Assembly (NCBI GenBank): GCA_964654995.1
Contig: CAZZKF010000005.1
Location: 1,616-65,615, forward strand
Direction of reading: 5' to 3'
Source: an uncultured Alphaproteobacteria bacterium
GTDB lineage: Bacteria > Pseudomonadota > Alphaproteobacteria > CAZZKF01
Length of the DNA stretch: 64,000 nt
In this document: one piece after another, positions 1 through 20,066 of the stretch
Layout of the letters: each line of letters starts with the position of its first letter
Numbering within the stretch: position 1 is the first letter of the stretch
The notes under the pieces: model-generated
What the model was told of the DNA's origin: nothing
Databases searched by the model: none
The model's input: the letters and a program-made list of their open reading frames with translations, nothing else
Program-made: the position numbers and the translations under genes

Positions 1-772
1 CCGCGCGAATGGCGCGGCGCCGCAGGCGCTTGGGAAAATGCGGCTCAACGACCCGCAGGATCTTGTCGAGCCGCAGCAGCAGAGCGCCCCAGACGGTGCC
101 GGTAAGGTTCTTCTGAAACTCCCTGATCTCGGCCGGCGGGGTCGCGAACAGCTCCTGAATGTCGACGCCGCGCGGATTGCGGGCCACCGGCTTGAGCGCC
201 GCCAGCACGAGGAGCGGCGCGATCACCGTGCGCGACCAGTAGGAAATCTTGCTCACATGGAAGGGAAACCAGCGCGGCAGCAGCATCACCTCGACCGGCA
301 TCACCGGCACGGCCCGCCACGGAAGCTGGCCGAACAGGGCCAGCGCGTAGCGGGTAAAGACATTGGCCTGCTCGGCGCCGCCATGGGCGAGAATGGCGGC
401 GCGGGCACGGCGCATGTGCGGTGCATCCGGATCGTCGCCGACCAGCTTGAGGGCAAAGTAGGCCTTGACGCTGGCGCTGATATCGAAATCGCCGTCGTAA
501 AACAGCGGCCAGCCGCCGTGAGTCCCCTGCTCGGCCCGGATGTAGGCGGCGAGCTTGGCCTCCACCGCCTCGTCGATATCGTCGAGGAAATGCTCGAGCA
601 GGATGTATTCGGCCGGGATGGTGACATCCGCCTCGAGCTCGAACAGCCACTCGCCGTCGTCGCGCTGCAAGGCGATGAGCGCCTCGCCGGCGTCCTGCAC
701 GCAGGCGGCGACGCGCTCGAGAAGCCCGGCGTCTGCCCTCGGTTCAACAGGTTGCGAACCCGCGCGAGTCAT
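1..772 (-). CDS. shc: squalene-hopene cyclase, N-terminal 257 codons; 5'-partial gene continuing beyond the window start
   Basis: I translated the minus strand by hand from the ATG at 772 (rc of 770-772 'cat') and found no stop through position 2. The product begins MTRAGSQPVEPRADAGLLERVAACVQDAGEALIALQRDDGEWLFELEADVTIPAEYILLEHFL. This carries the QxxDGxW repeat and the EAEY(I/V)LL.H.L N-terminal signature of SHC. The ORF track missed it because it runs off the window edge. It sits directly downstream of hpnE. Confidence 0.8.
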   Translation of the reverse strand, partial: MTRAGSQPVEPRADAGLLERVAACVQDAGEALIALQRDDGEWLFELEADVTIPAEYILLEHFLDDIDEAVEAKLAAYIRAEQGTHGGWPLFYDGDFDISASVKAYFALKLVGDDPDAPHMRRARAAILAHGGAEQANVFTRYALALFGQLPWRAVPVMPVEVMLLPRWFPFHVSKISYWSRTVIAPLLVLAALKPVARNPRGVDIQELFATPPAEIREFQKNLTGTVWGALLLRLDKILRVVEPHFPKRLRRRAIRA

Positions 773-840
773 CGATCACACCCAAATTTGTAATATGTCA
801 GAGCGTTCGGACAAAAGCGGCCTATCATGCCAGTTCTTCC

Positions 841-2100
841 CTAAAGCGCAAGCAGTGCGCGTGCCGCCCGCTGGCCCGAGCGCACCGCCCCTTCGATGGT
901 TGCCGGCAGGCCGGTGGCCGTCCAGTCGCCGGCCACAAACAGATTGGCGAGATGGGGGCCGGGGCCGGGGCGGTGCGCCAGCGCCGCCGGCACCTGGGCG
1001 AAGGTGGCGCGGCGTTCCTTGATGACCCGCCAGGGCGGCATCCTGTCGGGATCCTGATCGAGGGCACGGGCGGCATCCGCCCAGGTGCGCCGGGCAATCT
1101 CTTCGGCCCGCGCATCGACCAGCGCACGCGCCGCGCTGATGGTGATGGACGCCACGTCGCCGCGCACGAACAGCCAGTGGGCGAGGCCACCGATCAGGCC
1201 CATGAACATGACCGGGCGGGCGGCCTCGGGCGGCGCCTCGAGCCGGAAATGGGCGCCGACGATCGGCTGGCTGCCGTCGGGCACCGGGATCTCCGGGCAC
1301 AGCCTGGCGAGCGCCCGGGGCGGAATCGCCAGCACCACCCGGTCGTCGGGCGCAAGTGTCACCTCATCGTCGTTGAAAATCAGGGCAGCGATGCGCCCGT
1401 CTTGTACCTCGAGGCGCTTGAGGGCGCGTCCGAAGGCCGGGGAAATGCCACGCGCCGCCAGATAGGAAAGCGCCGGATCGATCAGGCTGGCCGACAGGCC
1501 GTCGCGGGCGATCAGCGGCCGGCAGGCGGCACCACCGCGCCCGAAGGTCTCGACGAGCACCGGCCACAGCAGCCGAGCAGCGCCCTCGTCGATCGGCGCG
1601 TTGAGGACGGCAACGGTGAGCGGCTCCCAGAAGCGGCTGCGCGCGGCATCCGAAACGTGCAGGCGATCGGCCACCGTGTCATCGGCACCGGCGCGCGCCA
1701 GCCGCAGGCCGGCGAGATAATCGCGCGCTCCGGTGCCCGGCGCCCGGCGTGAGGCACAGGCCAGCCACCAGGGCAGGCGCCCGCGGTTGGGCCGCACGGC
1801 CCAGCGCGCACCTGTCGCCAGATCGATGAACGGAAAAACCGCGTCCGGCGCCTCGATGAAGCTTGCGCGGGCGCCGATCCGCATCAGATAGGCCATTGCC
1901 GAGCGATTGCCGCTGAGCAGCAGGTGATTGCCGTTATCGACCACACGCTCGAGCAGCGGATCGTAATAGGAGCGGCAGCGCCCGCCGGCATGGCCGGCGC
2001 GTTCATGAATGGCGACGTCGCGGCCCTTGGCCGCCAGATCCACCGCACAAGAGAGACCGGCCAGCCCGGCGCCGACGATGTGAACGGTTCCCGTTGCCAT
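841..2100 (-). CDS. hpnE: hydroxysqualene dehydroxylase HpnE (FAD-dependent amine-oxidase family)
   Basis: 419-aa ORF. The N-terminal Rossmann motif VHIVGAGLAGLSCA and overall length match the HpnE/phytoene-desaturase-like family. It lies between the squalene-synthase-family gene and shc. Confidence 0.8.
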   Translation of the reverse strand: MATGTVHIVGAGLAGLSCAVDLAAKGRDVAIHERAGHAGGRCRSYYDPLLERVVDNGNHLLLSGNRSAMAYLMRIGARASFIEAPDAVFPFIDLATGARWAVRPNRGRLPWWLACASRRAPGTGARDYLAGLRLARAGADDTVADRLHVSDAARSRFWEPLTVAVLNAPIDEGAARLLWPVLVETFGRGGAACRPLIARDGLSASLIDPALSYLAARGISPAFGRALKRLEVQDGRIAALIFNDDEVTLAPDDRVVLAIPPRALARLCPEIPVPDGSQPIVGAHFRLEAPPEAARPVMFMGLIGGLAHWLFVRGDVASITISAARALVDARAEEIARRTWADAARALDQDPDRMPPWRVIKERRATFAQVPAALAHRPGPGPHLANLFVAGDWTATGLPATIEGAVRSGQRAARALLAL

Positions 2101-2106
2101 CGCCGA

Positions 2107-2985
2107 TCACAGCAGCCCGTAGCGCAGCGCGATCGCCAGCTTTTCCAGCCGCGAGAGGTGAACCGGCTCGGCCAAGCGCTGCCAGCCGCGGGCCTCCAGA
2201 CGCTCGAGGATGCGAGCATAGACCTTCATCATGACGATCGCCGGCCGCATCGCCCGGCGTGAGCAGCGGGAAAGCGCCGCTTCCGCCTCGGCAAAGCGCG
2301 TGCGCGCGCGGGCCGCCACCTGCGCACAGGCTTCGGGCAGGCGCGGGTCCGAGAGCACGCAGGCCGGCTCGAGCGTGGTGATGCCGGCGGCCTCGAGCGC
2401 CTCGCGCGGCAGGTAGAGCCGGCCACGCCCGGCATCCTCATGAAGGTCGCGGAGAATGTTGGTGAGCTGCAGGGCCTCGCCGAGCTTGAGCGCCACCTCG
2501 CGGCCCGCCGGCCCGGATTCGCCGAAGACGCGGACCGACAGCACCCCGACGGCGCCGGCGACCCGGGCGCAATAGAGCTCGAGCTCGTCCCAGCTCGGCG
2601 CCCGCATGCGCTCGGCGGCATCCATTTCCATACCGTCGATGATCGCCAGAAAGGCCTCGCGTTCGAGCTTGAACGCGGAAACCGGACCGGCCAGCGCCCG
2701 GGCCGTGCGTGAGCGCGCCTCGCCGGCATAGAGCCGGTCGATCTCGGCCCGCCAGTCGGCCAGTGCGGTTTCCTTGGCCGGGCGCTCGTCGTCGCCGTCG
2801 GCGATATCGTCGACCTCGCGGCAGAAGGCGTAGATCGCGAACATGGCGTCGCGCCGGTGCTCGGGCAACAGACGCATCGCCCACATGAACGAGGTGCCGG
2901 ACTGGCGCACCACGTCGCGGGCATGATCGCGGGCCGCGGCCATATCGGTCTCGGGTTCACAGGCGGGGGTGGCGGCTTCGATCAT
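2107..2985 (-). CDS. hpnD: squalene/phytoene synthase family protein (HpnD/HpnC-like presqualene diphosphate synthase)
   Basis: The ORF runs 2107..3018, but the codon at 3018 is GTG. I chose the ATG at 2985, which has an AGAGAG purine tract upstream. Squalene/phytoene synthase features are present (SGTSFMWAMRLLP, Asp-rich DDIADGD). There is a 6-nt gap to hpnE. The start is uncertain and could be 3018 or 2943. Confidence 0.75.
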   Translation of the reverse strand: MIEAATPACEPETDMAAARDHARDVVRQSGTSFMWAMRLLPEHRRDAMFAIYAFCREVDDIADGDDERPAKETALADWRAEIDRLYAGEARSRTARALAGPVSAFKLEREAFLAIIDGMEMDAAERMRAPSWDELELYCARVAGAVGVLSVRVFGESGPAGREVALKLGEALQLTNILRDLHEDAGRGRLYLPREALEAAGITTLEPACVLSDPRLPEACAQVAARARTRFAEAEAALSRCSRRAMRPAIVMMKVYARILERLEARGWQRLAEPVHLSRLEKLAIALRYGLL

Positions 2986-3096
2986 GACGCTCTCTGGCCC
3001 ACGGTTTTCTCGCGCCACAACAATTTGGCCGGGAATCGCCCGTCCGATCCCGCGACATCCGACTGGCGGTGCGGGACAGCAGGCAATGAGGGCCGC

Positions 3097-5013
3097 TCAG
3101 GCGGTGGCCGGGGTGGCGATCCGTTCGCGGCCGAGAGCGGCAAGCGCGGTGGAGACGATGTTCGCCGCCTTCAGTCCGGCATCCGTGTACTGGGCATCCG
3201 GGGTGTCATGGGCAATGAACCGGTCGGGCAGCATCATCGGGCGCACCTTGAGGCCGCGGTCGAGCATCCCCTCATGGGCCAGATAGTTGAGCACATGCAC
3301 ACCGAAGCCGCCGATGGCCCCTTCCTCGATGGTGATGAACACCTCGTGCTCGCGGGCCAGCCGGCGGATGAGATCGGTGTCCAGGGGCTTGGCGAAACGC
3401 GCGTCCGCAACCGTCGTCGACAGGCCCAGCGCGGCGAGCTCGTCGGCCGCACGCAGGCATTCCTGCAGCCGGCCACCGAGCGACAGCAGCGCCACCTTGC
3501 TGCCTTCGCGCAAGACTCGGCCCTTGCCGATTTCCAGCGGCCGGCCACGTTCCGGCAGCTCGACGCCGACGCCTTCGCCGCGCGGGTAGCGGACCGCCGA
3601 GGGACGGTCGTCAATCGCCGCCGCGGTTGCCACCATGTGCTTGAGCTCGGCCTCGTCGGCCGCCGCCATGATGACGAAACCCGGCAGGCAGGAAAGATAG
3701 GTGATGTCGTAGCTGCCGGCATGCGTCGGCCCATCGGCGCCGACCACCCCGGCACGGTCGATGGCGAAGCGCACCGGCAGGCTCTGAAGCGCAACGTCAT
3801 GCACCACCTGGTCATAGGCGCGCTGCAGAAAGGTCGAGTAGATGGCGGCAAAGGGTTTGAGCCCCTGGGTCGCCAGGCCGGCGGCAAAGGTCACCGCATG
3901 CTGCTCGGCGATGCCGACATCGTAGGTCCGGTCAGGGAACGATTTTTCGAAAATATTGATCCCCGTGCCCGACGGCATGGCGGCGGTGATCGCCACGATC
4001 TTTTCGTCGTCTTCCGCCTCCTGCACCAAGGACTCGCCGAACACCCGGGTGTAGGTGGGCGCGTTGGATTTCGACTTGATCTGGGTGCCGGTGACCACGT
4101 CGAACTTGGGCACCGCATGGTATTTCTCGGCCGAGGGCTGCGGGAACGGGTGCCCGCGGCCCTTTTCGGTGACCACATGAAGAAGTACGGGCCCGAGATC
4201 ATGGGCGTCGCGGACATTTGAGAGCACGGGCAGCAAATGGTCGATGTTGTGGCCGTCGACCGGGCCGACGTAATAGAAGCCGAGCTCTTCGAACAGAGTG
4301 CCGCCGGTGAACAGCCCGCGGGCATATTCCTCCGCCCGGCGGGCCATTTCGCCGAGTCGGCGCGGGAACTTCTTGGCCATGCCGCGGCCGATGTCGCGCA
4401 ACGACAGAAACGGCTTCGAGGACAGCACGCGGGACAGATAGGCGCTCATGGCGCCGACTGCGGGTGCGATCGACATGCCGTTGTCGTTGAGGATGACGAT
4501 CAGCCGGCTGTTCATGGCGCCGGCATTGTTCATCGCCTCATAGGCCATGCCGGCGCTCATCGCACCGTCGCCGATGACGCAGATGACGTTGTAATCGTCG
4601 CCGTTGCGGTCGCGGGCCACCGCCATGCCGAGCCCGGCCGAGATCGAGGTCGAGCTGTGCGCCGCCCCGAACGGGTCGTATTCGCTTTCCGAGCGCTTGG
4701 TGAAACCATAGAGGCCGCCGCCCTGGCGCAGGGTACGGATGCGGTCGCGCCGCCCGGTCAGAATCTTGTGGGGATAGCACTGATGGCCGACATCCCAGAT
4801 CAGCTTGTCGTCGGGCGTATTGAAGACATAGTGCAGCGCCACGGTGAGCTCGACAACGCCGAGGCCGGCGCCGAGATGGCCGCCGATGCCGGAGACTGCA
4901 TCGATGGTTTCGGCCCGCAGCTCGTCAGCCAGTTGCTGAAGCTCGGACGCATCCAGTTCCCGCAGGTCGGCGGGCACGCGAACCTTGTCCAAAAGCGGAG
5001 TTTCAACGGCCAT
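3097..5013 (-). CDS. dxs: 1-deoxy-D-xylulose-5-phosphate synthase
   Basis: 638 aa. Typical DXS N-terminus ([14 protein letters not shown]) and the TPP-binding GDG(A)[14 protein letters not shown] motif. ATG at 5013 with a GGAGG Shine-Dalgarno 9-13 nt upstream. Confidence 0.95.
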
Positions 5014-5265
5014 GGGTCCTGCCTCCCCTAGCGACCGCCGGCCCGGTCGGGGCCGTGCGACTATAATTACCGACGCGCCCGGTCAGGGAACGCCCTTTTG
5101 TCAAGACATTAACGCAAAGCTGGTCCATTTCAATCAAGACTTTATCACGCGTTTGTGAGTAATCGTCGTCAAGGCCAATGTATAAGGCCCTGATGTGTCA
5201 AGATTATGGCCGCTCTCGCCGCGGTCTTGTCGGATCCCGCGATCTCGTATCCGCTCTCGTGCCGC

Positions 5266-6444
5266 CTAGTCCGTCTGCGGCCCATAATGACGGCCTTTCC
5301 ATACCGCCCCCCGGCCCTGCCAGTAACGGCGCGCCGAATCCAGCGTCGCCAGCATGTAAATCATGGCAATCAGGGGCAGAAGCGGCGTCATATACCACGG
5401 CTGGCGATAATACGCCAGTGTCGGCCGATAGGACATCGACATCAACCCCCAGACGACCAGGCCGAGACTCGGCGCCGCGCCCCAGCTCACCAGAGCGCCG
5501 GCGCCGACCGCCAGCGGCGGCACCACATAGGTCACCACCATGCCAAACACGGTGCCGATCAGCAGCCACGGCGAGAACCGAAGCTGGCTGTAGGCGCCGC
5601 GGATGATCAATGCCCAGATACCTTTGAAACCGCCATAGGGGCGCAGGCTGCGGCTGTCTTCGCCAAGCCCGAGCCACAGCCGGCCGCCGGCGCGTTTGAC
5701 CGCCGCGGCCAGCGCACAGTCATCGATCAGATCGCCGCGAAAACGGGCGAGCCCGCCAGCCCGTGCAAGCGCCGCGCGGCGCACCAGCAGACAGCCGCCG
5801 GCCGCCCCGGCAATTCGGCTGTTCGGATCGGCGGTGGCGGCAAACGGATAAAGCATCTGGAAAAAGAACACGAAGGCCGGGATCAGCAGCCGCTCCCAAA
5901 GGCCCTGGCAGTGGAGGCGCACCATCAGCGAGACGAGATCACGGCGTTCGCGCTCGGCCTTGGCAACCAGGCGGCGCAGGGTATCGGGGCCGTGGAACAC
6001 GTCGGCGTCCGTCAACCACAGGAAATCGGCCTCGGGCGCCCAGGTCTCAGCCCGGCGCAGGCCCTGTTCAAGCGCCCACAGCTTGCCGGTCCAGCCCGGT
6101 TCCGGGCCGGCGCCGGAGACCACCTCGAAGGCAATGTCGCTGTGCGCCCGGGCAGCGGCGGCAGCGCGGGCGGCTTCGGCAGTGCCGTCGGCGCTGGCGT
6201 CATCGACCAGAATGACGGACAGGCGCCCCGGATAATCCTGGGCGAACAGGCCGGCGAGGCTGTCGCCGACGACATCCGCCTCGTTGCGGGCTGGGACAAT
6301 CGCCACCACCTCGGGCCAGGCGGGCGGCGCCGGTAGGTTGCGCGCAAGCCGCACATCGGCGCGCCAGAAACCCGCGCGGCCGAAAATCAGATAGAGCCAG
6401 ATCGCCAGCGCCGCGGCGGTTGCCCAGAGCCAGGGATCGCCCAT
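5266..6444 (-). CDS. family 2 glycosyltransferase, hopanoid-associated HpnB-like
   Basis: The ORF extends to 6657, but its first 71 codons are low-complexity and overlap the upstream gene. The internal ATG at 6444 (MGDPWLW...) lies 17 nt after the PhyH stop and has a GAGAGCGGGG upstream. The protein has an N-terminal TM helix, a GT2 catalytic core (VIVPARNEADVV, DxD-like LTDAD) and C-terminal TM helices. Its position beside shc/hpnE suggests an HpnB-type gene. Confidence 0.65.
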   Translation of the reverse strand: MGDPWLWATAAALAIWLYLIFGRAGFWRADVRLARNLPAPPAWPEVVAIVPARNEADVVGDSLAGLFAQDYPGRLSVILVDDASADGTAEAARAAAAARAHSDIAFEVVSGAGPEPGWTGKLWALEQGLRRAETWAPEADFLWLTDADVFHGPDTLRRLVAKAERERRDLVSLMVRLHCQGLWERLLIPAFVFFFQMLYPFAATADPNSRIAGAAGGCLLVRRAALARAGGLARFRGDLIDDCALAAAVKRAGGRLWLGLGEDSRSLRPYGGFKGIWALIIRGAYSQLRFSPWLLIGTVFGMVVTYVVPPLAVGAGALVSWGAAPSLGLVVWGLMSMSYRPTLAYYRQPWYMTPLLPLIAMIYMLATLDSARRYWQGRGAVWKGRHYGPQTD

Positions 6445-6460
6445 GGGATCAGCCCCGCTC

Positions 6461-7219
6461 TCAGACCCTGAAGGTGTATTGCTTGCCGGGCTCACGCTCG
6501 CAATCGGGAGGAAAGCCCTTGCGCTTGTCGGCGTAATAGCGCTCGCGGTGATCCCCGGCCGAGGTGCGGTTGTAGGTGATATAGAGAATGCGGCGCGACC
6601 GTTCGGTGCGGTTGGGCCCGGAGCCGTGCGGCGCATAGGAGTCGAAAAACGCCACATCCCCGGGTTTCGTGGGAAACGGCACGAAGTCCATGCCGGCGGT
6701 CTCGGCCTCGCTCAGGGGCTTCCATTCCTCGCCGATCAGGCCGCGGTCGTGAAAGCCGGCGGCGAGCTCCAGACAGCCGTTCTCCACCGTCGATTCATCG
6801 ATGCTGACCATCGCCGTGATGAAATAGTCGGCATACGCGTTCCAGCCCGCCTGCTGATCCTGATGCAGCTCGAAGCCGCCGCCGCCCGGCAGCTTGAAAT
6901 TGATCTTGTCCTTGTAGAGAACCGCCGGCTCGCCGAGCAGTTCCGCCACCGCGCCCTTGAGCCGGGGCTCGTCGAACAGGGCCTGGAAGCCGGCATGATA
7001 GGGATAGATGTTTTCGGCCCGCTGCAGCACCCGCACGCCGGGCTCAACGCGGCTGTCCTCGTAATACATCATGTGGCGGCCCGGCACTTCCGGCCAGGCG
7101 ACGATTTCATCGCACCAGGCGGCGATCCCGGCGATCTCGTCAGGCGCGAACAGGCCGCGCAGGATGACAAAACCATTGCGCTTGAAGTCAGCAATCTGCT
7201 GGGCGGTGAGGATGGCCAT
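6461..7219 (-). CDS. phytanoyl-CoA dioxygenase (PhyH) family Fe(II)/2-oxoglutarate-dependent oxygenase
   Basis: This is the C-terminal 252 codons of the artefactual 864-aa ORF 6461..9055. The real start is the ATG at 7219 (MAILTAQQIADFKRNGFVILRGLF...), a typical PhyH N-terminus. An HxD...H facial triad is present (FELHQDQ ... YAPHGSGPN). Confidence 0.8.
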   Translation of the reverse strand: MAILTAQQIADFKRNGFVILRGLFAPDEIAGIAAWCDEIVAWPEVPGRHMMYYEDSRVEPGVRVLQRAENIYPYHAGFQALFDEPRLKGAVAELLGEPAVLYKDKINFKLPGGGGFELHQDQQAGWNAYADYFITAMVSIDESTVENGCLELAAGFHDRGLIGEEWKPLSEAETAGMDFVPFPTKPGDVAFFDSYAPHGSGPNRTERSRRILYITYNRTSAGDHRERYYADKRKGFPPDCEREPGKQYTFRV

Positions 7220-7435
7220 GGCTATTTCCCCATACAACACGACGCCCCGAGCGGGGCCCGAACCCGCCCCGATTCTTAGCCCCGGCCCCGGTTCAACACC
7301 AAACAATTTTGCGTGTCGGCGGCGGGCTGCGCAGCGAGCGACGTTGAGGGCCCCCGCCCAATCCTCTATCCTGTCCAGACAAGACGGCACATCGTCGTTT
7401 CGCCGCCCGCACAACCGAACAGGGGGCACGGCTAG

Positions 7436-9109
7436 ATGACCGGCAAACATCGCCTGGAGCCCAAATCTGCAAGCCCGTGGAGCGACGCGGCGCCGACGAA
7501 GGCGGCGCGCTTTCGGGCCGAGCTCGAGTCGGCCGAGCTGTCGTTCCTGATGGAGGCCCACGACGGCCTGTCGGCCAAGGTCGTCGAGGAGGCCGGCTTT
7601 TGCGGCATCTGGGCCTCGGGCCTGGCGATCTCGGCGGCCATGGGCCTGCGCGACAACAACGAGGCCTCGTGGTCGCAGGTGCTCGAGGTGCTGGAATACA
7701 TGTCGGATGCCACGCGCATTCCGATCCTGCTCGACGGCGATACCGGCTACGGCAATTTCAACAATTTCCGGCATCTGGTGAAAAAGCTCGGCCAGCGCGA
7801 CATCGCCGCGGTGTGCATCGAGGACAAGCTGTTCCCCAAGACCAACTCGTTCATCGGCGAGCAGCAGCCGCTGGCCGACATCGACGAGTTCTGCGGCAAG
7901 ATCAAGGCCGGCAAGGACAGCCAGCTCGACGACGACTTCTCGATCATCGCCCGCGTCGAAGCCCTGATCGCCGGCTGGGGGCTGGATGAGGCCCTGCGGC
8001 GTGCCGAGGCCTATGCAGAGGCCGGGGCCGACGGCATCCTCATCCATTCCAAGCGCACCAGCGCCCGCGAGGTGCTGACCTTTGCCGCCGAATGGGCCGG
8101 GCGCAAGCCGCTGGTGATCGTGCCGACCATGTATTACGCGACGCCGACCGAGCGCTTCCGCGAGGCGGATATTTCCATGGTCATCTGGGCCAACCACAAT
8201 CTGCGCGCGGCCTTGAAGGCGATGCGCGAGGTCAGCCGGCGCATCTTCGAGGAGCAGAGCCTGGTCGGCATTGAAGGCCAGATCGCCAGCGTCCGCGACA
8301 TCTTCGAGATCACCGGCAACGACGAGCTGGCCGAGGCTGAGCGCCGCTATCTGGCCAAGGCCGAGCCGAGCGCGCGGGCCATCATTCTCGCCGCCTCGCG
8401 CGGCAGCGCGCTCGCCAAACTGACCGAGGATCGCCCCAAGTGCATGCTCGAGGTCGGCGGCCAGCCGATCCTGCGGCGCCTGGTCAGCACCTTGAATGAC
8501 GCCGGCATCCGCGACATCACCGTGGTCCGCGGCTATCGCAAGGAGGCGGTGGATCTGCCGGCGATTCGGACGGTCGATAACGATTCTTACGCCGAGACCG
8601 GCGAGGTCGCCTCGCTGGCCTGCGCTGCCGCGGCGCTCGAAGGCGATTGCATCGTCTCGTTCGGCGACATTCTGGTGCAGCGCTACATCGTCGGCGAACT
8701 GTTCGAGGCGCAAGGCGATATCGTCGTCGTCGTCGATGCCCTGTGGCGCCAGCGCAGCGATGTTGCCAGCCACGACAAGCGCGATCTGGCGCGCTGCAGC
8801 CGGCCGCGGCCGACCGACTGGCTGGATGACGAGCCGGTCTATCTGGAGGCGCTGGACACCGCCATCGACCCGGCCTGGACCCATGGCCGCTGGATCGGGC
8901 TGGTGAAACTGAGCGCCGCCGGCTGCCGGCTGGTGCGCGACGAGATCAAGGCGATGGGCGAGGACGGCGTGCTCGAGACCGCGTCGATGGCCGATCTGTT
9001 CAACCGGCTGATCGCCAAGGGCGTGCGCCCGGTGGTCCATTATGTCGCCGGCCACTGGCTCGACGTGAACGACGCCTTCGACCTTGCCCAGGCCCGCGAC
9101 TTCGTGTGA
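7436..9109 (+). CDS. pepM: phosphoenolpyruvate phosphomutase fused to a C-terminal nucleotidyltransferase domain (PepM::NTase)
   Basis: 557 aa. The N-terminal ~295 aa form an ICL/PEP-mutase fold ([25 protein letters not shown] motif characteristic of PepM). The C-terminal ~250 aa are sugar-nucleotidyltransferase-like ([30 protein letters not shown]). Confidence 0.85.
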
Positions 9110-10258
9110 GTGCCGGCGATGATCGCCGCTGCCGATTTTCTCACGCCGGCCCGGGCCCGCGGCTTCGATTTTTTCACCGGCGTGCCGTGCTCCTTCCTCA
9201 CGCCTTTGATCGATGCGGTGATCAGTGACGCGCAGACCCGCTACGTCGGCGCCACCAGCGAAGGCGAAGCGGTGGCAATCGCCGCCGGCGCCTGGCTCAC
9301 TGGCCGGCGCACGGTGATGATGTGCCAGAACTCAGGCCTGGGCAATGCCGTCAATCCCTTGACCTCGCTCAACCACCCGTTTCGCATCCCCACCCTGCTG
9401 ATCGTCACCTGGCGCGGCCAGCCGGGCCTGGGTGATGAGCCCCAGCATGAGGTGATGGGGGGAATCACCGGCGATCTGCTGAGCGTCATCGGCATCGCCC
9501 ACCGGCCGTTCCCGAAAGATGCCGGCGCCGTCGAGCCGGCCCTCGATGCGGCCCTCGCCGCGATGGACGCCACCTCGCTTCCCTTCGCCTTCATCATGGA
9601 GAAGGGCACGGTGCGTTCGGCCTCGCTCGACCAGGCGCCGGTTGAGCGGCCGGCGCCCGGCCGGCGCGTCGACATGTGTTGCCGGCGGGCGCGGGTGCGG
9701 CGCGCCGCCGTGCTCGAGCGGTTTCTGGCGGAGATTCCTGAGACGGCGGCGGTGATTGCCACCACGGGAAAATGCGGGCGCGAGCTGTTTGCGCTCGCCG
9801 ATCGGCCCCAGCACCTCTATCAGGTCGGCTCGATGGGCGGCGCCAGCGCCATGGGCCTCGGCGTCGCCATGAACGTGACGCGGCCGGTGATCGTCCTCGA
9901 CGGCGACGGGGCGGCGCTGATGAAGCTCGGCAATATGGCGACCATCGGGGCCAACGCGCCGGAAAACTATGTCCATATCCTGCTCGATAACGGCGTGCAC
10001 GATTCGACCGGCGGCCAGGCGACGGTCTCACCCGTCATCGACTTTGCCGCCATCGCGCTCGCCTGCGGCTACCGCCAGGCTTTCCTGTGCGACGATATCG
10101 CCGGCTTCGCCAAGGCCCTGGCCGGGGCGCTGGCTGAACCCGGCCCGGCTCTCGTTCACATGGCCATCGCGCCGGGCTCGCTCAAGAATCTGCCGCGCCC
10201 CAACATCCCGCCCGACCAGGTTGCACGGCGCTTTCGCCATTTCCTGACAACCGTCTAG
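9110..10258 (+). CDS. ppd: phosphonopyruvate decarboxylase (TPP-dependent)
   Basis: 382 aa immediately after pepM. A GTG at 9110 abuts the pepM stop, and there is an alternative ATG at 9119. TPP-binding motif GDGAALMKLGNMATIGANAPENYVHILLDNGVHDSTGGQ. Its size and position are typical of Ppd/AepY. Confidence 0.85.
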   Translation: MPAMIAAADFLTPARARGFDFFTGVPCSFLTPLIDAVISDAQTRYVGATSEGEAVAIAAGAWLTGRRTVMMCQNSGLGNAVNPLTSLNHPFRIPTLLIVTWRGQPGLGDEPQHEVMGGITGDLLSVIGIAHRPFPKDAGAVEPALDAALAAMDATSLPFAFIMEKGTVRSASLDQAPVERPAPGRRVDMCCRRARVRRAAVLERFLAEIPETAAVIATTGKCGRELFALADRPQHLYQVGSMGGASAMGLGVAMNVTRPVIVLDGDGAALMKLGNMATIGANAPENYVHILLDNGVHDSTGGQATVSPVIDFAAIALACGYRQAFLCDDIAGFAKALAGALAEPGPALVHMAIAPGSLKNLPRPNIPPDQVARRFRHFLTTV

Positions 10259-10530
10259 AGCCGATCACCCGGTGTTGGCGCGGCCGCGTTCGCTTTGCCC
10301 TGCCTGTCGATGCATTCCATTCCTGGTCACCTTGAGGGCGAATGTCGAGATCACTATTGCAAATGCGTCGCAGTTGCAATACAGTCACACACACATAGAT
10401 AGGTAAAACAAGACAGCAAAAGGCACGACGCCCGATCGTCTCGAAAGGCCACGCGAACGTTCGAAAGACTCCGCCGACACCGGCAGCCACTGAAAAAAAG
10501 ATCGGTACGGTTCCGCGACAGAGGTGCGAC

Positions 10531-10998
10531 ATGACATTGCCGTTTTCATCCCCCTCGGCCGCCGAATCGACGGCTCGCAATGTCGCCGATCTGGGCCGTG
10601 ACGAGCGCCTGGTGCTGCGCGGCTTTCGTGGCTGGGTCCTGGGGTTGCGGGCCAATGCGGGCGCACCGTGCACCATTGCCTGGACCATGTTTGCCTCAGA
10701 CTTTGGTGCCGAAGCCGGCCGTGCGATCATGGTCGCGTTGGTCGCCGTGATTGCCGCCCTGGCGGCCGGTCCGCGCCGCCCCCTGCGCCTTCATCCACCC
10801 TGCTGCCCGCGGCTGGGCCACGACGAGCTGGCGCTTCTGGGTCTTCTCGACGCCTGCCGGCAAGGCCACTGGGCGCTGGCCCGGGCCCGGGCCGAATGGC
10901 TGGTTGAGGCCAATGGGGTCGGCGATCTTCTGGCCGCCATGAGCCGGCTGGCCCGGACATTGAGTGACTCGGCAAAGACAACGCAACCCGGGCCCTGA
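10531..10998 (+). CDS. hypothetical protein (Ala-rich, no recognised domain)
   Basis: 155-aa ORF with coding-like composition. It follows a relatively AT-rich leader at 10320-10530. I could not infer a function. Confidence 0.45.
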   Translation: MTLPFSSPSAAESTARNVADLGRDERLVLRGFRGWVLGLRANAGAPCTIAWTMFASDFGAEAGRAIMVALVAVIAALAAGPRRPLRLHPPCCPRLGHDELALLGLLDACRQGHWALARARAEWLVEANGVGDLLAAMSRLARTLSDSAKTTQPGP

Positions 10999-11064
10999 CA
11001 TCGCCGCCGAGGCTGTCACGGCACGGACAATTCACCCGCCACCGGAATCGCGTTAGAGTGACGC

Positions 11065-11502
11065 ATGATCCGGTCTTCGGCCTTGTCGTTTCGCAAATCG
11101 ATGGTCCGGCGGCGCCGGTTCGGGGTTCTGCTGGCCCTGGCCATGACGATCGCTGGCCCTGGCCTGCAAGCCCAGCCAAGCGCGACCAGCAGCTTCATCC
11201 CCGGCCTCGAGGATGTGCCCTTGATGGCCGGCCTGGCGCTCGACGAGACCCGCGGCTTCGTCTTCGACAAGCCCGACGGCCGTCTGGTCGAGGCGGTGGC
11301 GACGGGGCGCATCCCGGCGGCCGAGATCGCCCGCTTCTACGCCGATGTCCTGAGCCAGTTGGGCTGGCGACGGCGGGCTGGCGCTCCGGATGCCGCCGAA
11401 CAGGTGTTCCGGCGCAACGACGAGGTGCTGACGATCACCACCCGCGCCACCCGTCAGGGCCTGGTCGTGCGGTTCTCGCTGGCGCCACGCGCCGGTCATT
11501 GA
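11065..11502 (+). CDS. hypothetical secreted protein (signal peptide)
   Basis: 145 aa. Signal-peptide-like N-terminus (RRRRFGVLLALAMTIAGPGLQAQP). An alternative start lies at 11101. The overlapping frames (11058..11708 + and 11053..12804 -) look like artefacts. Confidence 0.45.
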   Translation: MIRSSALSFRKSMVRRRRFGVLLALAMTIAGPGLQAQPSATSSFIPGLEDVPLMAGLALDETRGFVFDKPDGRLVEAVATGRIPAAEIARFYADVLSQLGWRRRAGAPDAAEQVFRRNDEVLTITTRATRQGLVVRFSLAPRAGH

Positions 11503-11568
11503 CAGGCACGCCGCTTTCGGGTCCCATCGCGGCGCGATTCCCCAAGGCCAGGCAGGACCCGGAAAACG

Positions 11569-12345
11569 ATGACCTACGAAAACATTCTGGTGGACACCGA
11601 GGGCCCGGTGGGCGTGATCACGCTCAACCGACCGCAGGCTCACAACGCACTGAATACGGCCTTGATGCGCGAACTCAAGGCGGCGCTCAAGGCCTTCGAA
11701 GCGGATGATGCCATCGGCTGCATGGTGATCACCGGCTCGGACGCCGCCTTTGCCGCCGGCGCCGACATCAAGGAGATGCAGGCCCGCGACTACATGGACG
11801 TGTTCGCCGCCGACTTCATCACCGCCGAGTGGGAGCAGGCGGCGGCCTGCCGCAAGCCGCTGATCGCGGCGGTCGCCGGCTATGCGCTGGGCGGCGGCTG
11901 CGAGCTGGCGATGATGTGCGACATCGTCATCGCCGCCGATACGGCCAAATTCGGCCAGCCGGAAATTCGCCTCGGCATCATGCCCGGGGCCGGCGGCACC
12001 CAGCGCCTGGTCCGTGCCATCGGCAAGGCCAAGGCGATGGAGATGTGTCTCACCGGCCGCATGATCGGGGCCGAAGAGGCGGAACGCGCCGGCCTCGTCG
12101 CCCGCGTCGTGCCGGCCGAGAAGCTGATGGAGGAAACACTCGGCGTCGCCGCCGCCATCGCCGGCTTCTCGCGGCCCAGCGTCCTGATGATCAAGGAGGC
12201 GATCAACCGCGCCTTCGAGATGCCGCTGGCCGAGGGCATAAGGTTCGAGCGCCGCCTGTTCCACTCCCTGTTCGCCACCGAGGATCAGAAGGAAGGCATG
12301 CAGGCCTTCCTGGACAAGCGCGAGCCGGTTTTCCGCAACCGCTAG
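11569..12345 (+). CDS. enoyl-CoA hydratase (crotonase family)
   Basis: 258 aa. Crotonase signature [18 protein letters not shown] and the oxyanion-hole region [16 protein letters not shown]. Confidence 0.9.
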
Positions 12346-12456
12346 ACCCGGGTCCCGGCCGCTCCGACGGCCGCGCGGTTCGGCGTTGACGCCGGCGGAG
12401 GCCGGGGATATAAACGCATCTCCGAATTTCGAGCCCTTGTGCAGAGACGGTAAGAC

Positions 12457-12723
12457 ATGGCCAATACCCCCGGCGCCAGAAAACGCATTCGCCGCAACGA
12501 GCGGCGCGCCGCGATCAATCGCAACCGCATCAGCCGCATCCGCACCTTCATCAAGAAGGTCGAGACGGCGATCGCCGAAGGCGACAAGGACAGAGCGGCC
12601 GAGGCTCTGCGCGCGGCCCAGCCGGAAATCATGCGCGGGGTGACCAAGGGCGTGCTGCACAAGAACACGGCGGCCCGCAAGATCTCGCGGCTGTCGCGCC
12701 ACGTCGCCCGCATGGGCAACTGA
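12457..12723 (+). CDS. rpsT: 30S ribosomal protein S20
   Basis: 88 aa. [34 protein letters not shown] is classic S20. Confidence 0.95.
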
Positions 12724-12889
12724 ACCGGCGCCCGAGTCGCACGCGAATTCCATCCATCTAGCGGCAAGGCCGGCCGCCCGTCGGGCGGTGCCGCGGAGTC
12801 GCACCCGGACAATCCGTCCGCCTGGCCGGCCGGCACCGGCGACCAGGACAAGATTTTGTGGGCATGCGGTTCATGACACCCAAGCGGAC

Positions 12890-13197
12890 CCATTTTTTTT
12901 GGTGTTCACCATGTGATCCGGTTGCCAGCGCCGCCGACCGCAGCTACGTTACGTAGTCTTTGCGATTTCTGTTGTTGTTTTTTAGGTTCAAGTAAAAACA
13001 AAGAAAATACCGGAAATATGATTTTGTTATTGGTCAAAATTTCTCCACATTAGGGATGTTCAAATTCCTGCGCGCGGCCTCGTCAGGTTGTGGCGCCGGA
13101 ATCAGGGGTTTCGTTTGATTGGTACTTGATTTTTTACTGCAATCTGGGACGACCGGGCATCGTGGACGCATCCGGGAAAGGGGGGCTTTTCCGATAA
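12890..13197. promoter_or_regulatory. AT-rich rpsT-dnaA intergenic region: dnaA promoter and candidate DnaA-box/DUE region (possible oriC element)
   Basis: This is the most AT-rich stretch in the window. It contains a T8 run at 12893-12900, long A/T tracts at 12961-13060, and a DnaA-box-like TTCTCCACA at 13050-13058 (one mismatch to TTATCCACA). It lies immediately upstream of rhodanese-dnaA-dnaN-recF-gyrB. Confidence 0.4.
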
Positions 13198-13617
13198 ATG
13201 TCGGGACTGGCTGGCGAAATCGAGGCGCGCGACGCCTGGAAAATACTTGAGCAGGACGATGGCGCGGTTCTGATCGACGTGCGCACCGATGCCGAATGGA
13301 CCTATGTCGGCGTGCCCGATCTGAGCCCCCTGGGCAAGACGCCGGTGCGCCTCTCCTGGCAGCTGTTTCCGGAGATGGCGGTCGATCCCGGGTTTTGCGA
13401 CAAGCTGGAAAGCCTGGGGCTGCCGCGCGATGCGCCATTGCTGTTCATCTGCCGCTCCGGCGCCCGTTCGCGGGCCGCCGCCGAGGCGATGGCGGCCCGC
13501 GGGTATACCCGGTGCTACAACGTCGTCGACGGCTTCGAGGGGGATCCGGACGCGCACAATCATCGGGGCACGATCAATGGCTGGAAGGTCGCCGGCCTGC
13601 CCTGGGTGCAAGAGTAG
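13198..13617 (+). CDS. rhodanese-domain sulfurtransferase (single domain)
   Basis: 139 aa. Rhodanese fold with the active-site Cys loop FICRSGARS. Confidence 0.8.
   Translation: MSGLAGEIEARDAWKILEQDDGAVLIDVRTDAEWTYVGVPDLSPLGKTPVRLSWQLFPEMAVDPGFCDKLESLGLPRDAPLLFICRSGARSRAAAEAMAARGYTRCYNVVDGFEGDPDAHNHRGTINGWKVAGLPWVQE

Positions 13618-16408: not shown

Positions 16409-20066
<3,658 letters not shown>

What the first reader, a model, noticed from the sequence alone, without database searches (positions are those of the whole stretch)
5266..10258. Phosphonate biosynthesis pair (PepM::nucleotidyltransferase fusion + Ppd) divergent from the hopanoid / GT2 / PhyH genes
pepM carries the [11 protein letters not shown] motif and a C-terminal LicC/GlmU-like nucleotidyltransferase domain. 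This is the architecture expected to make an NMP-activated phosphonate head group (CMP-2-AEP type). ppd follows immediately. This pair is the only obvious specialised-metabolism island in the window. It sits back-to-back (216-bp divergent intergenic region at 7220-7435) with a PhyH dioxygenase - HpnB-like GT2 operon and next to shc/hpnE/hpnD. That juxtaposition suggests a phosphonate-decorated glycolipid or hopanoid-associated membrane glycoconjugate. No dedicated 2-AEP transaminase or phosphonoacetaldehyde reductase is present in the window. The final phosphonate therefore cannot be named from this sequence alone.
Basis: partly seen in the sequence, partly recalled or inferred. Interest (0 to 1): 0.65.

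Follow-up and report, generated by a model that had tools for sequence, protein, structure and literature searches.

The report
Phosphonate genes wired into hopanoid cluster
Two genes that make carbon-phosphorus bonds sit at the edge of a hopanoid (bacterial sterol-like lipid) gene cluster, and the same pairing recurs in about half of the related species examined, which points to an uncharacterised phosphonate membrane lipid made and handled together with hopanoids.

Summary
Window 7436-9109 encodes a true PEP mutase (TIGR02320, 386 bits, above its cut-off; [10 protein letters not shown] motif) fused to a LicC/PntC-like nucleotidyltransferase. 9110-10258 encodes phosphonopyruvate decarboxylase.

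The juxtaposition is not accidental: 41 of the 80 closest species-level PepM::NTase loci have hpn genes within 10 kb, in several different gene orders. It also occurs in cultured Roseomonas marmotae and Mycetohabitans rhizoxinica. The PhyH is probably a phosphonate enzyme rather than a glycolipid enzyme. Its best curated match is the PhnY* phosphonate hydroxylase, and 15 of the 80 loci keep the same divergent PhyH/PepM pairing.

The fuller related clusters match the known but chemically uncharacterised "Group 1 phosphonolipid" core: AEP transaminase, a second NTase, CDP-alcohol phosphotransferases and HpnL. None of these four is in the window. A hydroxy-AEP membrane lipid is therefore more likely than a glycoconjugate.

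Whether the acceptor is diacylglycerol or a hopanoid is open. The hopanoid link has only been noted in passing in the literature.

The parts
7436..8323 (+). PEP mutase domain of the fusion protein (residues 1-296). Predicted reaction: PEP to phosphonopyruvate.
   Evidence: TIGR02320 scores 386 bits, above its cut-off of 319.55, over residues 27-296. It gives 388 bits to PEP mutase 1M1B with an identical [10 protein letters not shown] motif.
8378..9109 (+). C-terminal MobA/LicC-like nucleotidyltransferase domain (residues 315-557). Predicted to form CMP-(hydroxy)AEP. Its signature loop is AASRGSA instead of the canonical GxG[ST]R.
   Evidence: Pfam NTP_transf_3 scores 51 bits. The best solved relatives are LicC 1JYK and Tde-PntC 6PD1. 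Among 87 fused homologues the PK, GD and WxD motifs are invariant or nearly so, and the AA[ST]RG loop is conserved.
9110..10258 (+). Phosphonopyruvate decarboxylase (Ppd), with no gap after pepM::NTase. The start may be ATG 9119.
   Evidence: TIGR03297 scores 424.7 bits against a cut-off of 312.5. TPP_enzyme_N and TPP_enzyme_C are both found. A GDG...N thiamine-diphosphate motif can be read in the translation.
7220..7435 (.). 216-bp divergent intergenic region between PhyH and pepM::NTase. It presumably holds both promoters.
   Evidence: The scans find no sigma-70 consensus, terminator or Rfam match here. Fifteen related loci have the same divergent PhyH/PepM arrangement, with gaps of 120-416 bp.
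6461..7219 (-). PhyH-family Fe(II)/2-oxoglutarate dioxygenase, PhnY*-like. Predicted to hydroxylate the alpha-carbon of AEP to give 1-hydroxy-2-AEP.
   Evidence: NF052437 (PhnY* methylphosphonate hydroxylase) scores 202 bits over the full length. That is far above any other model but below its equivalog cut-off of 500. All 22 clade members tested, from all genomic contexts, hit this model best. The H119-x-D121...H198 triad and R209/R210 are invariant. The AF2 model has pLDDT 93.5.
5266..6444 (-). HpnB, the hopanoid-associated GT2 glycosyltransferase. It starts 16 nt downstream of PhyH, so the two are probably co-transcribed. Its function is unknown.
   Evidence: TIGR03469 scores 528 bits against a cut-off of 379. 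The order PhyH>hpnB>dxs>hpnD>hpnE>shc is also seen in L094, L099 and L119.
3097..5013 (-). dxs (DXP synthase), which supplies isoprenoid precursor inside the hpn cluster.
   Evidence: TIGR00204 scores 792.6 bits. dxs also lies next to the phosphonate module in Roseomonas marmotae and Mycetohabitans rhizoxinica.
2107..3018 (-). hpnD (presqualene diphosphate synthase).
   Evidence: TIGR03465 scores 347.9 bits against a cut-off of 278.6.
841..2100 (-). hpnE (hydroxysqualene dehydroxylase).
   Evidence: TIGR03467 scores 391.4 bits against a cut-off of 283.
2..775 (-). The 5' part of shc (squalene-hopene cyclase), cut by the start of the window.
   Evidence: Pfam SQHop_cyclase_N scores 330 bits.

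Best explanation
The window holds the carbon-phosphorus-bond-forming front end of a "Group 1"-type (hydroxy)aminoethylphosphonate membrane-lipid pathway. This front end is physically and probably functionally integrated into the hopanoid (hpn) gene cluster.

Proposed steps:
1. The PepM domain isomerises PEP to phosphonopyruvate. Family membership is shown; activity is inferred.
2. Ppd decarboxylates phosphonopyruvate to phosphonoacetaldehyde, which pulls the unfavourable equilibrium. Family membership is shown.
3. A PhnW/AepZ-type transaminase makes 2-AEP. This gene is not in the window, so the step is inferred from 23 of 80 related loci where it lies within 10 kb of pepM, in most of them directly after ppd.
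4. The divergently transcribed PhnY*-like PhyH dioxygenase hydroxylates C1 to give 1-hydroxy-2-AEP. This is inferred.
5. The fused NTase domain, or a canonical free paralogue encoded elsewhere, activates the phosphonate with CTP to a CMP-phosphonate. This is inferred from PntC precedent.
6. A CDP-alcohol-phosphotransferase-family enzyme moves the head group onto a membrane-lipid alcohol. The flippase-like HpnL, the RND pump HpnN and the MlaC-like HpnM then handle it alongside hopanoids. None of these genes is in the window. The step is inferred from related loci.

HpnB belongs to the hopanoid side. It is co-transcribed with PhyH, and its role is unknown.
For: Enzyme identity: TIGR02320 and TIGR03297 both score above their equivalog cut-offs. 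The PepM domain gives 388 bits to a solved PEP mutase.

Conserved linkage from the PepM side. Of the 80 closest species-representative PepM::NTase loci (59-69% identity), 41 have hpn genes within 10 kb, and 31 have strict markers (shc, hpnH, hpnN, hpnC/D/E or hpnG). Among loci with full flanks the figure is 22 of 41. At least four different gene orders are represented. By my estimate, about 1-2% would be expected for a random gene.

PhyH belongs with the phosphonate genes. Fifteen of the 80 loci have the same divergent PhyH/PepM::NTase pair. All 22 PhyH clade members tested hit the PhnY* model best.

Related superclusters carry the missing steps: AEPT, a free canonical NTase, up to three CDP-OH_P_transf paralogues, HpnL, HpnN, HpnM and HpnA.

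Cultured examples. In Roseomonas marmotae p1318-3, the free NTase, aepX, aepY, hpnL, AEPT and a CDP-alcohol transferase sit inside the hpn cluster. In Mycetohabitans rhizoxinica pBRH01, the seven-gene core is followed by dxs, hpnN, hpnM-like, ispH, hpnH, hpnA and hpnB.

Match to the described core. The seven-gene core corresponds to the "Burkholderiales_CDP-OH / Group 1 phosphonolipid" core of PMC8942020 and to Fig. 7 of PMC5987646. Both papers predict a 1-hydroxy-AEP lipid.

HpnL. The core's flippase-like gene scores 260-372 bits on TIGR03476 "HpnL".

No PhnZ-type HD gene lies next to the PhyH, which argues against a catabolic role.
Against: - The window lacks AEPT, the CDP-alcohol transferase, the free NTase, hpnL, hpnN and hpnM, so the pathway cannot be completed from this sequence.
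- The PhyH scores 202 bits on the PhnY* model, well below its equivalog cut-off of 500.
- Close PhyH orthologues also occur inside hpn clusters with no pepM within 10 kb (L003, L094, L119). One lies in an unrelated context (L118).
- In B. cenocepacia and Cupriavidus the seven-gene core has no hpn genes within 15 kb.
- About half of the PepM::NTase loci have no hpn neighbours.
- The fused NTase lacks the canonical GxG[ST]R arginine.
- No product of this cluster type has ever been isolated (PMC8942020).
Confidence: 0.6

Rival explanations
1. Covalent phosphono-hopanoids. CMP-(hydroxy)AEP is transferred by one of the hpn-cluster CDP-alcohol phosphotransferases onto a hydroxyl of a bacteriohopanepolyol, or onto an HpnB-made hopanoid glycoside. 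This would be a new class of composite hopanoid, exported by HpnL, HpnN and HpnM.
For: - The phosphonate module is embedded within hpn clusters, not just beside them. It lies between hpnA and hpnN/hpnL/hpnM in L021, L044, L046, L051, L056, L062, L073 and L075.
- hpnM lies immediately upstream of pepM::NTase, in the same direction, in at least 12 loci.
- There are up to three CDP-OH_P_transf paralogues per supercluster. One clade is also present in an hpn cluster that has no nearby pepM.
- PhyH is co-transcribed with hpnB, and in other loci with hpnC.
- The linkage is seen in Alpha- and Betaproteobacteria here. The literature reports it in Nitrosococcus (PMC8942020; PMC7285500) and Roseomonas (PMC8776678).
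- hpnA, hpnB, hpnL and hpnM still have no assigned function (PMC12583986; bioRxiv 10.1101/2025.07.29.667474).
Against: - No phosphorus-containing bacteriohopanepolyol was reported in the broad LC-HRMS survey of Alphaproteobacteria. The term "phosphon" does not occur in that paper at all.
- The seven-gene core stands apart from hpn genes in B. cenocepacia and Cupriavidus.
- Sequence cannot identify the acceptor of a CDP-alcohol phosphotransferase.
Confidence: 0.2
2. One reading: a phosphonate-decorated glycoconjugate. HpnB, or another glycosyltransferase, builds a glycolipid or glycan that is then decorated with AEP from CMP-AEP, as in phosphonoglycans.
For: - HpnB is a GT2 related to HpnI and CruG.
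- In the closest PepM::NTase relative (L007/L008, 69-71% identity) an HpnB-like GT2 is directly divergent from pepM::NTase. No other hpn gene lies within the 10 kb upstream; the contig ends inside ppd, so the downstream side is unseen.
- Some PepM::NTase loci sit next to O-antigen-type genes (L049).
- Rice et al. link PntC mainly to cell-surface glycans (PMC6697681).
Against: - No LicD-type phosphotransferase, and no glycan polymerase, flippase or export genes, accompany the pair in the window.
- The genes that co-vary with the module elsewhere are phospholipid-type: CDP-OH_P_transf and LPG_synthase_TM.
- hpnB is a common member of hpn clusters in general (PMC12583986).
Confidence: 0.1
3. Functionally unrelated neighbours. 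PepM::NTase and Ppd make a phosphonate for a purpose unrelated to hopanoids. The PhyH acts on an isoprenoid or hopanoid substrate, as its family name would suggest. The adjacency reflects only co-inheritance of envelope genes.
For: - PhyH orthologues sit inside hpn operons with no pepM within 10 kb.
- About half of the PepM::NTase loci have no hpn neighbours.
- The window lacks all downstream phosphonate-tailoring genes.
Against: - The adjacency persists through several independent rearrangements and in two proteobacterial classes.
- PhyHs from every context form one interleaved family whose best curated match is a phosphonate hydroxylase.
- On the one contig long enough to show both ends, a "type A" PhyH-hpnB cluster is continuous with the pepM module about 17 kb away (L002 and L006).
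- The Burkholderiales core carries a non-homologous 2OG oxygenase (HalD-like) in the equivalent position. This implies that oxygenation is part of the phosphonate pathway.
Confidence: 0.1

Closest known systems
"Group 1 phosphonolipid" / "Burkholderiales_CDP-OH" seven-gene cluster (Yu et al. 2013, as cited by Li & Horsman 2022, PMC8942020; drawn for Nostoc and Burkholderia in PMC5987646)
   Same: It has Ppm fused to a PF12804 NTase, followed directly by Ppd, and a 2OG/Fe(II) oxygenase sits in the module. The related alphaproteobacterial superclusters add AEPT, a second NTase, CDP-OH_P_transf and HpnL, exactly as in the described core.
   Different: The window carries only three of the seven functions. 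Its oxygenase is a PhyH/PhnY*-type enzyme, whereas the Mycetohabitans core has a HalD-like 2OG oxygenase. The module is fused to the edge of the hpn cluster, at the position where related clusters have hpnC.
PntC/LicC phosphonyl-tailoring cytidylyltransferases (Rice et al. 2019, PMC6697681)
   Same: The domain belongs to the same Pfam family, PF12804, and is fused to Ppm as in 33% of Ppm proteins. Its best structural relatives are LicC 1JYK and Tde-PntC 6PD1.
   Different: The signature loop reads AASRGSA instead of (A/G)GLG(S/T)R. The canonical arginine is absent and an arginine sits two positions earlier. This variant is conserved across the fused subfamily, while the free paralogue keeps LAAGxGxRL. 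Activity and substrate have not been tested.
PhnY*/PhnZ oxidative phosphonate catabolism (PhnY* AEP or methylphosphonate hydroxylase)
   Same: It is a PhyH-fold Fe/2OG enzyme. The best curated model hit is NF052437, over the full length, and the facial triad is intact.
   Different: The score is well below the equivalog cut-off (202 against 500). There is no PhnZ HD-domain partner. The context is biosynthetic (pepM, ppd) and hopanoid-related, not catabolic.
Canonical hpn hopanoid biosynthesis cluster (hpnA-N, shc)
   Same: hpnB, hpnD, hpnE, shc and dxs are present in the usual order. The order PhyH>hpnB>dxs>hpnD>hpnE>shc is shared with several marine and sediment contigs.
   Different: hpnC is missing from its usual place upstream of PhyH, and from the whole 64 kb. 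The divergent pepM::NTase-ppd pair occupies that side instead.
Bacteroides fragilis aepXYZ and the Bacteriovorax stolpii HAEP sphingophosphonolipid pathway
   Same: They share the PepM-Ppd (and AEPT) route to AEP. B. stolpii attaches 1-hydroxy-AEP to a lipid (PMC8942020).
   Different: They belong to different gene-cluster families, have no hopanoid genes, and use different acceptors (a glycan and a sphingolipid respectively).

Membership tests
PEP mutase (PepM/Ppm/AepX) | Scores above the TIGR02320 equivalog cut-off, and better than on sister families of the isocitrate-lyase superfamily | tested here: met
   386.1 bits against a cut-off of 319.55. PnPy hydrolase scores 244 (cut-off 374), PrpB 141 and CPEP mutase 95.
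PEP mutase (PepM/Ppm/AepX) | EDKxxxxxNS catalytic motif | tested here: met
   [10 protein letters not shown] is in the translation and is identical to the motif in the Mytilus enzyme 1M1B.
Phosphonopyruvate decarboxylase (Ppd/AepY) | Scores above the TIGR03297 equivalog cut-off, with N- and C-terminal TPP-binding domains | tested here: met
   424.7 bits against a cut-off of 312.5. TPP_enzyme_N and TPP_enzyme_C are both found.
PntC/LicC-type cytidylyltransferase | PF12804 fold, with LicC and PntC as nearest solved relatives | tested here: met
   NTP_transf_3 scores 51 bits. 1JYK gives 46 bits and 6PD1 gives 37 bits.
PntC/LicC-type cytidylyltransferase | Canonical N-terminal GxG(S/T)R nucleotide-binding signature | tested here: not met
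   The window reads AASRGSAL, against AAGLGTRL in LicC and AGGLGSRL in Tde-PntC. The variant is conserved in the fused subfamily; PK, GD and WxD are retained.
PntC/LicC-type cytidylyltransferase | CTP-dependent activation of AEP in preference to phosphocholine | not testable with these tools
   This needs an enzyme assay.
PhnY*-type phosphonate alpha-hydroxylase | Fe(II)/2OG facial triad HxD...H and a 2OG-binding Arg in a PhyH fold | tested here: met
   H119, D121, H198, R209 and R210 are invariant in 22 sequences. The AF2 model has pLDDT 93.5.
PhnY*-type phosphonate alpha-hydroxylase | Scores above the NF052437 equivalog cut-off | tested here: not met
   202 bits against a cut-off of 500. It is the best hit by a wide margin, with ectoine hydroxylase next at 39 bits. 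All 22 clade members tested behave the same way.
PhnY*-type phosphonate alpha-hydroxylase | Adjacent PhnZ HD-domain C-P-cleaving partner (catabolic system) | tested here: not met
   No PhnZ-like gene lies near the PhyH. The only HD protein seen in the window is a 730-aa PAS/HD_5 protein at 26833-29025.
HpnB (hopene-associated GT2) | Scores above the TIGR03469 cut-off and lies in an hpn cluster | tested here: met
   528 bits against a cut-off of 379. It is flanked by dxs, hpnD, hpnE and shc.
Group 1 phosphonolipid seven-gene core | Ppm::PntC fusion, Ppd and a 2OG/Fe(II) oxygenase together | tested here: met
   All three are present. The oxygenase is of a different Pfam family (PhyH) from the one in the Mycetohabitans core (HalD-like).
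Group 1 phosphonolipid seven-gene core | AEP transaminase, second PntC, CDP-alcohol phosphatidyltransferase and HpnL-like membrane protein in the same locus | tested here: not met
   None is found in the 64-kb window by tblastn or by Pfam on the ORFs scanned. They are present in related loci. The rest of this genome could not be searched.

The most novel reading that the evidence does not exclude
The pepM::NTase-ppd-PhyH module is the head-group branch of a pathway that esterifies (hydroxy)aminoethylphosphonate onto bacteriohopanepolyols. The product would be an undescribed class of phosphono-hopanoid lipids. The orphan genes hpnL, hpnM, and possibly hpnA and hpnB, would be its flippase, shuttle and tailoring enzymes. 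If so, the gene name hpnL is itself a by-product of this phosphonate-hopanoid linkage.
Probability: 0.2. Interest if true: 0.85.

Novelty: new variant of a known kind. Interest (0 to 1): 0.6.

Why it matters
Two research fields each hold half of this picture.

Phosphonate biochemists describe the most abundant bacterial pepM cluster family, the "Group 1 phosphonolipid" cluster. Its product has never been isolated.

Hopanoid biologists list hpnA, hpnB, hpnL and hpnM as orphan genes. Their recent microsynteny and lipidomic surveys do not mention phosphonates at all.

The window, taken with the comparative data, shows that the two gene sets are repeatedly interleaved. The flippase-like gene of the phosphonate core is a bona fide TIGR03476 "HpnL".

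This makes concrete experiments possible in cultured carriers (Roseomonas marmotae, Mycetohabitans, Burkholderia). They could identify the phosphonate lipid, test whether hopanoids are its acceptor or only its co-travellers, and assign functions to the orphan hpn genes.

It would also bear on environmental phosphonate budgets, because many of the carriers come from marine and soil metagenomes. It could matter for the interpretation of hopanoid biomarkers as well.

Tried and rejected
- Recovering the rest of the source contig (77,198 bp at NCBI) to look for AEPT, CDP-OH, hpnL/N/M and hpnC. Exact-protein look-ups for HpnE and for the PepM fusion were not on record. Only the 30-kb JGI copy, which ends in hpnE, was available.
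- Naming the organism. The cluster look-up gave no names. The nearest PepM::NTase is 69-71% identical and comes from a Sphingomonadales MAG.
- A solved PhnY* structure. There is none in the PDB copy; the best hit is 6EC3 at 51 bits. The afdb50 fold library was unavailable, so the PhyH model could not be compared with annotated AlphaFold entries.
- Regulatory signals. There is no sigma-70-like promoter, no convincing terminator and no Rfam family in 5000-13400.
- orf155 (10531-10998) and orf145 (11065-11502), downstream of ppd. They have no Pfam family and are not conserved in any related locus. I rejected them as cluster members.
- The idea that HpnL-family proteins occur only in phosphonate cores. 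In PLSDB, close homologues (60% identity or more) are confined to replicons that carry PepM::NTase. A distant \"HpnL family protein\" in Paraburkholderia largidicola stands alone, and the LPG_synthase_TM gene of an hpn cluster without nearby pepM scores below the TIGR03476 cut-off.
- A catabolic reading (PhnY*/PhnZ). Rejected, because there is no PhnZ partner and the context is biosynthetic.
- Horizontal acquisition of the pair. GC and GC3 (0.85-0.89) match the neighbouring genes, so there is no evidence for it.
- Genome-level co-occurrence of PhyH and pepM.

Full report
**1. What is in the sequence**

The region 1-16 kb of this high-GC window (about 67% GC) reads as follows. The map is based on ORF lists, third-position GC, Pfam, NCBIfam and the gene calls on an identical JGI contig.

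| Coordinates | Strand | Gene | Key evidence |
|---|---|---|---|
| 2-775 | - | shc, 5' fragment | SQHop_cyclase_N |
| 841-2100 | - | hpnE | TIGR03467, 391 bits |
| 2107-3018 | - | hpnD | TIGR03465, 348 bits |
| 3097-5013 | - | dxs | TIGR00204, 793 bits |
| 5266-6444 | - | hpnB | TIGR03469, 528 bits (cut-off 379) |
| 6461-7219 | - | PhyH dioxygenase | Pfam PhyH, 103 bits |
| 7220-7435 | . | 216-bp divergent gap | |
| 7436-9109 | + | pepM::NTase | see below |
| 9110-10258 | + | ppd | see below |

Downstream of ppd come two unconserved small ORFs, then an enoyl-CoA hydratase, rpsT, dnaA, dnaN, recF and gyrB.

**2. The phosphonate pair is genuine**

The 557-aa product of 7436-9109 scores 386 bits on TIGR02320, the PEP mutase equivalog (cut-off 319.55). 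It scores only 244, 141 and 95 bits on phosphonopyruvate hydrolase, methylisocitrate lyase and carboxy-PEP mutase, all far below their cut-offs. Residues 22-305 give 388 bits to the solved Mytilus PEP mutase 1M1B, with the [10 protein letters not shown] motif identical.

Residues 315-434 match PF12804. The nearest solved proteins are LicC (1JYK) and the AEP-specific Treponema PntC (6PD1). A fusion of Ppm to PF12804 is common: Rice et al. found it in 33% of Ppm proteins (PMC6697681).

Ppd scores 425 bits on TIGR03297 (cut-off 312.5).

**3. A caveat on the NTase domain**

Where LicC and PntC read AAGLGTRL and AGGLGSRL, the window reads AASRGSAL. The first glycine and the signature arginine are missing, and an arginine sits two positions earlier.

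Across about 87 fused homologues this AA[ST]RG loop is conserved (R in 80 of 86). The PK lysine (87/87), the GD aspartate (87/87) and a C-terminal WxD (83/87) are invariant or nearly so. By contrast, the free NTase paralogue found in 35 of 80 related loci has the canonical LAAGxGxRL.

The fused domain is therefore under selection and probably active. It is a distinct subtype whose substrate has not been shown. The window contains no canonical free paralogue.

**4. The PhyH is closest to phosphonate hydroxylases**

Its best curated family by a wide margin is NF052437, the PhnY* methylphosphonate hydroxylase. It scores 202 bits over the full length, against 39 bits for the next model, ectoine hydroxylase. 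This is still below the equivalog cut-off of 500.

The HxD...H triad and the 2OG-binding arginines are invariant, and the AF2 model is confident (pLDDT 93.5). Twenty-two members of this PhyH clade, taken from every genomic context found, all hit the PhnY* model best. There is no PhnZ partner, so a catabolic role is unlikely.

The literature describes PhnY*/FzmG-type enzymes as alpha-carbon hydroxylases of phosphonates (PMC8942020).

**5. The juxtaposition with hopanoid genes is conserved**

*From the PepM side.* A scan of one genome per species with the PepM::NTase protein returned 80 loci at 59-69% identity. Nearly all are uncultured Alphaproteobacteria. I used tblastn with a reference set of hpn and phosphonate proteins. 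The results:

| Feature within 10 kb of pepM::NTase | Loci |
|---|---|
| Any hpn gene | 41 of 80 |
| Strict markers (shc, hpnH, hpnN, hpnC/D/E, hpnG) | 31 of 80 |
| Any hpn gene, loci with full 10-kb flanks only | 22 of 41 |
| Same divergent PhyH/PepM::NTase pair as the window (gap 120-416 bp) | 15 of 80 |
| hpnM immediately upstream of pepM::NTase, same direction | at least 12 of 80 |

By my estimate a random gene would lie that close to a 25-kb cluster in about 1-2% of cases.

Several distinct architectures recur. The fullest one is:
hpnC hpnB hpnD hpnE shc hpnG | hpnH ispH | hpnA NTase | PhyH | PepM::NTase Ppd | AEPT | CDP-OH x2 | hpnN (CDP-OH) hpnL | hpnM.
It is seen in L021, L044, L046, L051, L056, L062, L073 and L075.

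*From the PhyH side.* A metagenome scan with the PhyH returned 26 loci:
- nine have hpnC>PhyH>hpnB, and the longer contigs continue dxs>hpnD>hpnE>shc — the window's order, with hpnC where the window has the divergent pepM pair;
- ten have hpnL..hpnG>PhyH>hpnN>CDP-OH>hpnA;
- four have pepM, ppd or AEPT alongside.

On the one contig long enough to show both ends (33.8 kb, L002 plus L006), a PhyH-hpnB hpn cluster is continuous with hpnA, CDP-OH, NTase, hpnL, hpnN, hpnM, PepM::NTase, Ppd and AEPT.

A neighbour-joining tree interleaves PepM-adjacent and hpn-embedded PhyHs.

**6. Cultured examples and the link to a known cluster family**

In Roseomonas marmotae 1318 plasmid p1318-3, the free NTase, aepX (the PepM fusion), aepY, an HpnL-type gene, AEPT and a CDP-alcohol transferase sit between hpnN/dxs and ispH-hpnH-hpnG-shc-hpnE-hpnD-hpnC-hpnB-hpnA.

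In Mycetohabitans rhizoxinica HKI 454 pBRH01 the order is: CDP-alcohol transferase, a 2OG oxygenase, HpnL, NTase, aepX, aepY, AEPT, then dxs, hpnN, an hpnM-like gene, ispH, hpnH, hpnA and hpnB. B. cenocepacia and Cupriavidus carry the same seven genes with no hpn genes within 15 kb.

This seven-gene set is the "Burkholderiales_CDP-OH / Group 1 phosphonolipid" core of Li & Horsman (PMC8942020). It is also the cluster drawn for lichen Nostoc and Burkholderia in PMC5987646. Both papers predict a 1-hydroxy-AEP lipid, which has never been isolated.

The Mycetohabitans oxygenase is HalD-like rather than PhyH. This looks like a non-homologous replacement at the same pathway position.

The core's flippase-like gene scores 260-372 bits on TIGR03476 "HpnL" (cut-off 196). 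The LPG_synthase_TM gene of an hpn cluster without nearby pepM scores only 129. In PLSDB, close HpnL homologues occur only on replicons that also carry PepM::NTase. A distant family member does stand alone.

**7. Most likely mechanism**

The proposed pathway is:
1. PEP to phosphonopyruvate (PepM).
2. Phosphonopyruvate to phosphonoacetaldehyde (Ppd).
3. Phosphonoacetaldehyde to 2-AEP (AEPT, encoded outside the window).
4. 2-AEP to 1-hydroxy-AEP (PhyH).
5. Activation to a CMP-phosphonate (fused or free NTase).
6. Transfer to a membrane-lipid alcohol by a CDP-alcohol phosphotransferase.
7. Flipping and export by HpnL, HpnN and HpnM.

Steps 1 and 2 rest on family membership shown here. Steps 3 to 7 are inferred from related loci and from the cited literature.

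The window encodes only steps 1, 2 and 4, and possibly step 5. I give this reading a confidence of 0.6.

The main open point is the acceptor. I put a covalent hopanoid conjugate at about 0.2.

**8. Against the model**

- The missing genes.
- The sub-cut-off PhnY* score.
- PhyH orthologues with no pepM within 10 kb (L003, L094, L119) or in an unrelated context (L118).
- PepM::NTase loci with no hpn neighbours. Some sit among housekeeping genes, next to an O-antigen ligase, or in a Ppd-less cluster with a DegT aminotransferase and a different PhyH.
- The absence of any phosphorus-bearing hopanoid in a broad 2025 lipidomic survey.

**9. Novelty**

The gene pair itself is a member of a known kind.

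The hopanoid link has been noted only in passing:
- antiSMASH "phosphonate-terpene" calls in Nitrosococcus (PMC7285500; PMC8942020);
- a remark on Roseomonas (PMC8776678).

Recent hopanoid-centred surveys list hpnA, hpnB, hpnL and hpnM as unexplained and never mention phosphonates (PMC12583986; bioRxiv 10.1101/2025.07.29.667474). I found no paper that characterises the Group 1 product.

The window's variant is not the described form. It has a PhyH-type oxygenase, it is fused to the hpnC side of the hpn cluster, and it lacks the lipid-transfer genes locally. I therefore rate it a new variant of a known kind, with an interest of 0.6.

Noticed in passing
window 8378-8440 (NTase N-terminus), and about 87 homologues in L008-L091: PepM-fused NTase domains carry a conserved AA[ST]RG loop instead of the canonical GxG[ST]R. 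The free paralogue in the same clusters keeps LAAGxGxRL. The PK, GD and WxD motifs stay invariant or nearly so.
   Followed up: partly
window 1-64000: hpnC is absent from the whole window. In related PhyH-hpnB-dxs-hpnD-hpnE-shc clusters it lies directly upstream of PhyH (L094, L119). In the window the divergent pepM::NTase-ppd pair occupies that side instead.
   Followed up: partly
window 12457-20066: The hpn/phosphonate cluster lies about 3 kb from the chromosomal origin region (rpsT, dnaA, dnaN, recF, gyrB). The mechanical dnaA ORF (13296-15062, 588 aa) overlaps a rhodanese ORF at 13198-13617. The JGI annotation calls that rhodanese separately and gives a 459-aa DnaA.
   Followed up: no
L089 11370-12077 (Mycetohabitans rhizoxinica pBRH01): The 2OG oxygenase of the Burkholderiales seven-gene phosphonate core is HalD-like (PF23169), not PhyH. 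This looks like a non-homologous replacement of the oxygenase step between Beta- and Alphaproteobacteria.
   Followed up: partly
L090 13140-14150, L089 12086-13087, L006 5361-6380, L088 18774-19763, L003 7235-8233: TIGR03476 'HpnL' scores highest (260-372 bits) on the flippase-like gene of phosphonate cores, including B. cenocepacia, where no hpn genes are nearby. It scores below the cut-off (129 bits) on the LPG_synthase_TM gene of an hpn cluster that has no nearby pepM.
   Followed up: partly
L062 13968-14654, 14651-15268, 18020-18688: One supercluster carries three paralogous CDP-alcohol phosphatidyltransferases, 30-34% identical to one another. One clade (the hpnN>CDP-OH>hpnL position) also occurs in an hpn cluster with no nearby pepM (L003).
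   Followed up: partly
L071 8630-14582: This is a different PepM::NTase context with no Ppd. It has a divergent DegT-type aminotransferase, followed downstream by a distantly related PhyH and a hydantoinase B. It may be a separate, undescribed phosphonate pathway.
   Followed up: no
L118 10001-10762: A PhyH that is 65% identical to the window's lies in a context with no hpn genes and no pepM (zinc alcohol dehydrogenase, MR/MLE enolase, fatty-acid desaturase). The clade is therefore not strictly tied to either gene set.
   Followed up: no
window 10259-11502: There is a relatively AT-rich 270-bp stretch after ppd, followed by two ORFs (155 and 145 aa). Neither has a Pfam family or a homologue in any related locus. 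orf145 has a signal-peptide-like N-terminus.
   Followed up: partly
L007/L008 8618-11668 (Sphingomonadales MAG, the closest PepM::NTase relative): An HpnB-like GT2 is directly divergent from pepM::NTase, with no PhyH between them. No other hpn gene lies in the 10 kb upstream (rpmB and methylmalonyl-CoA mutase are there instead). The contig ends inside ppd.
   Followed up: no
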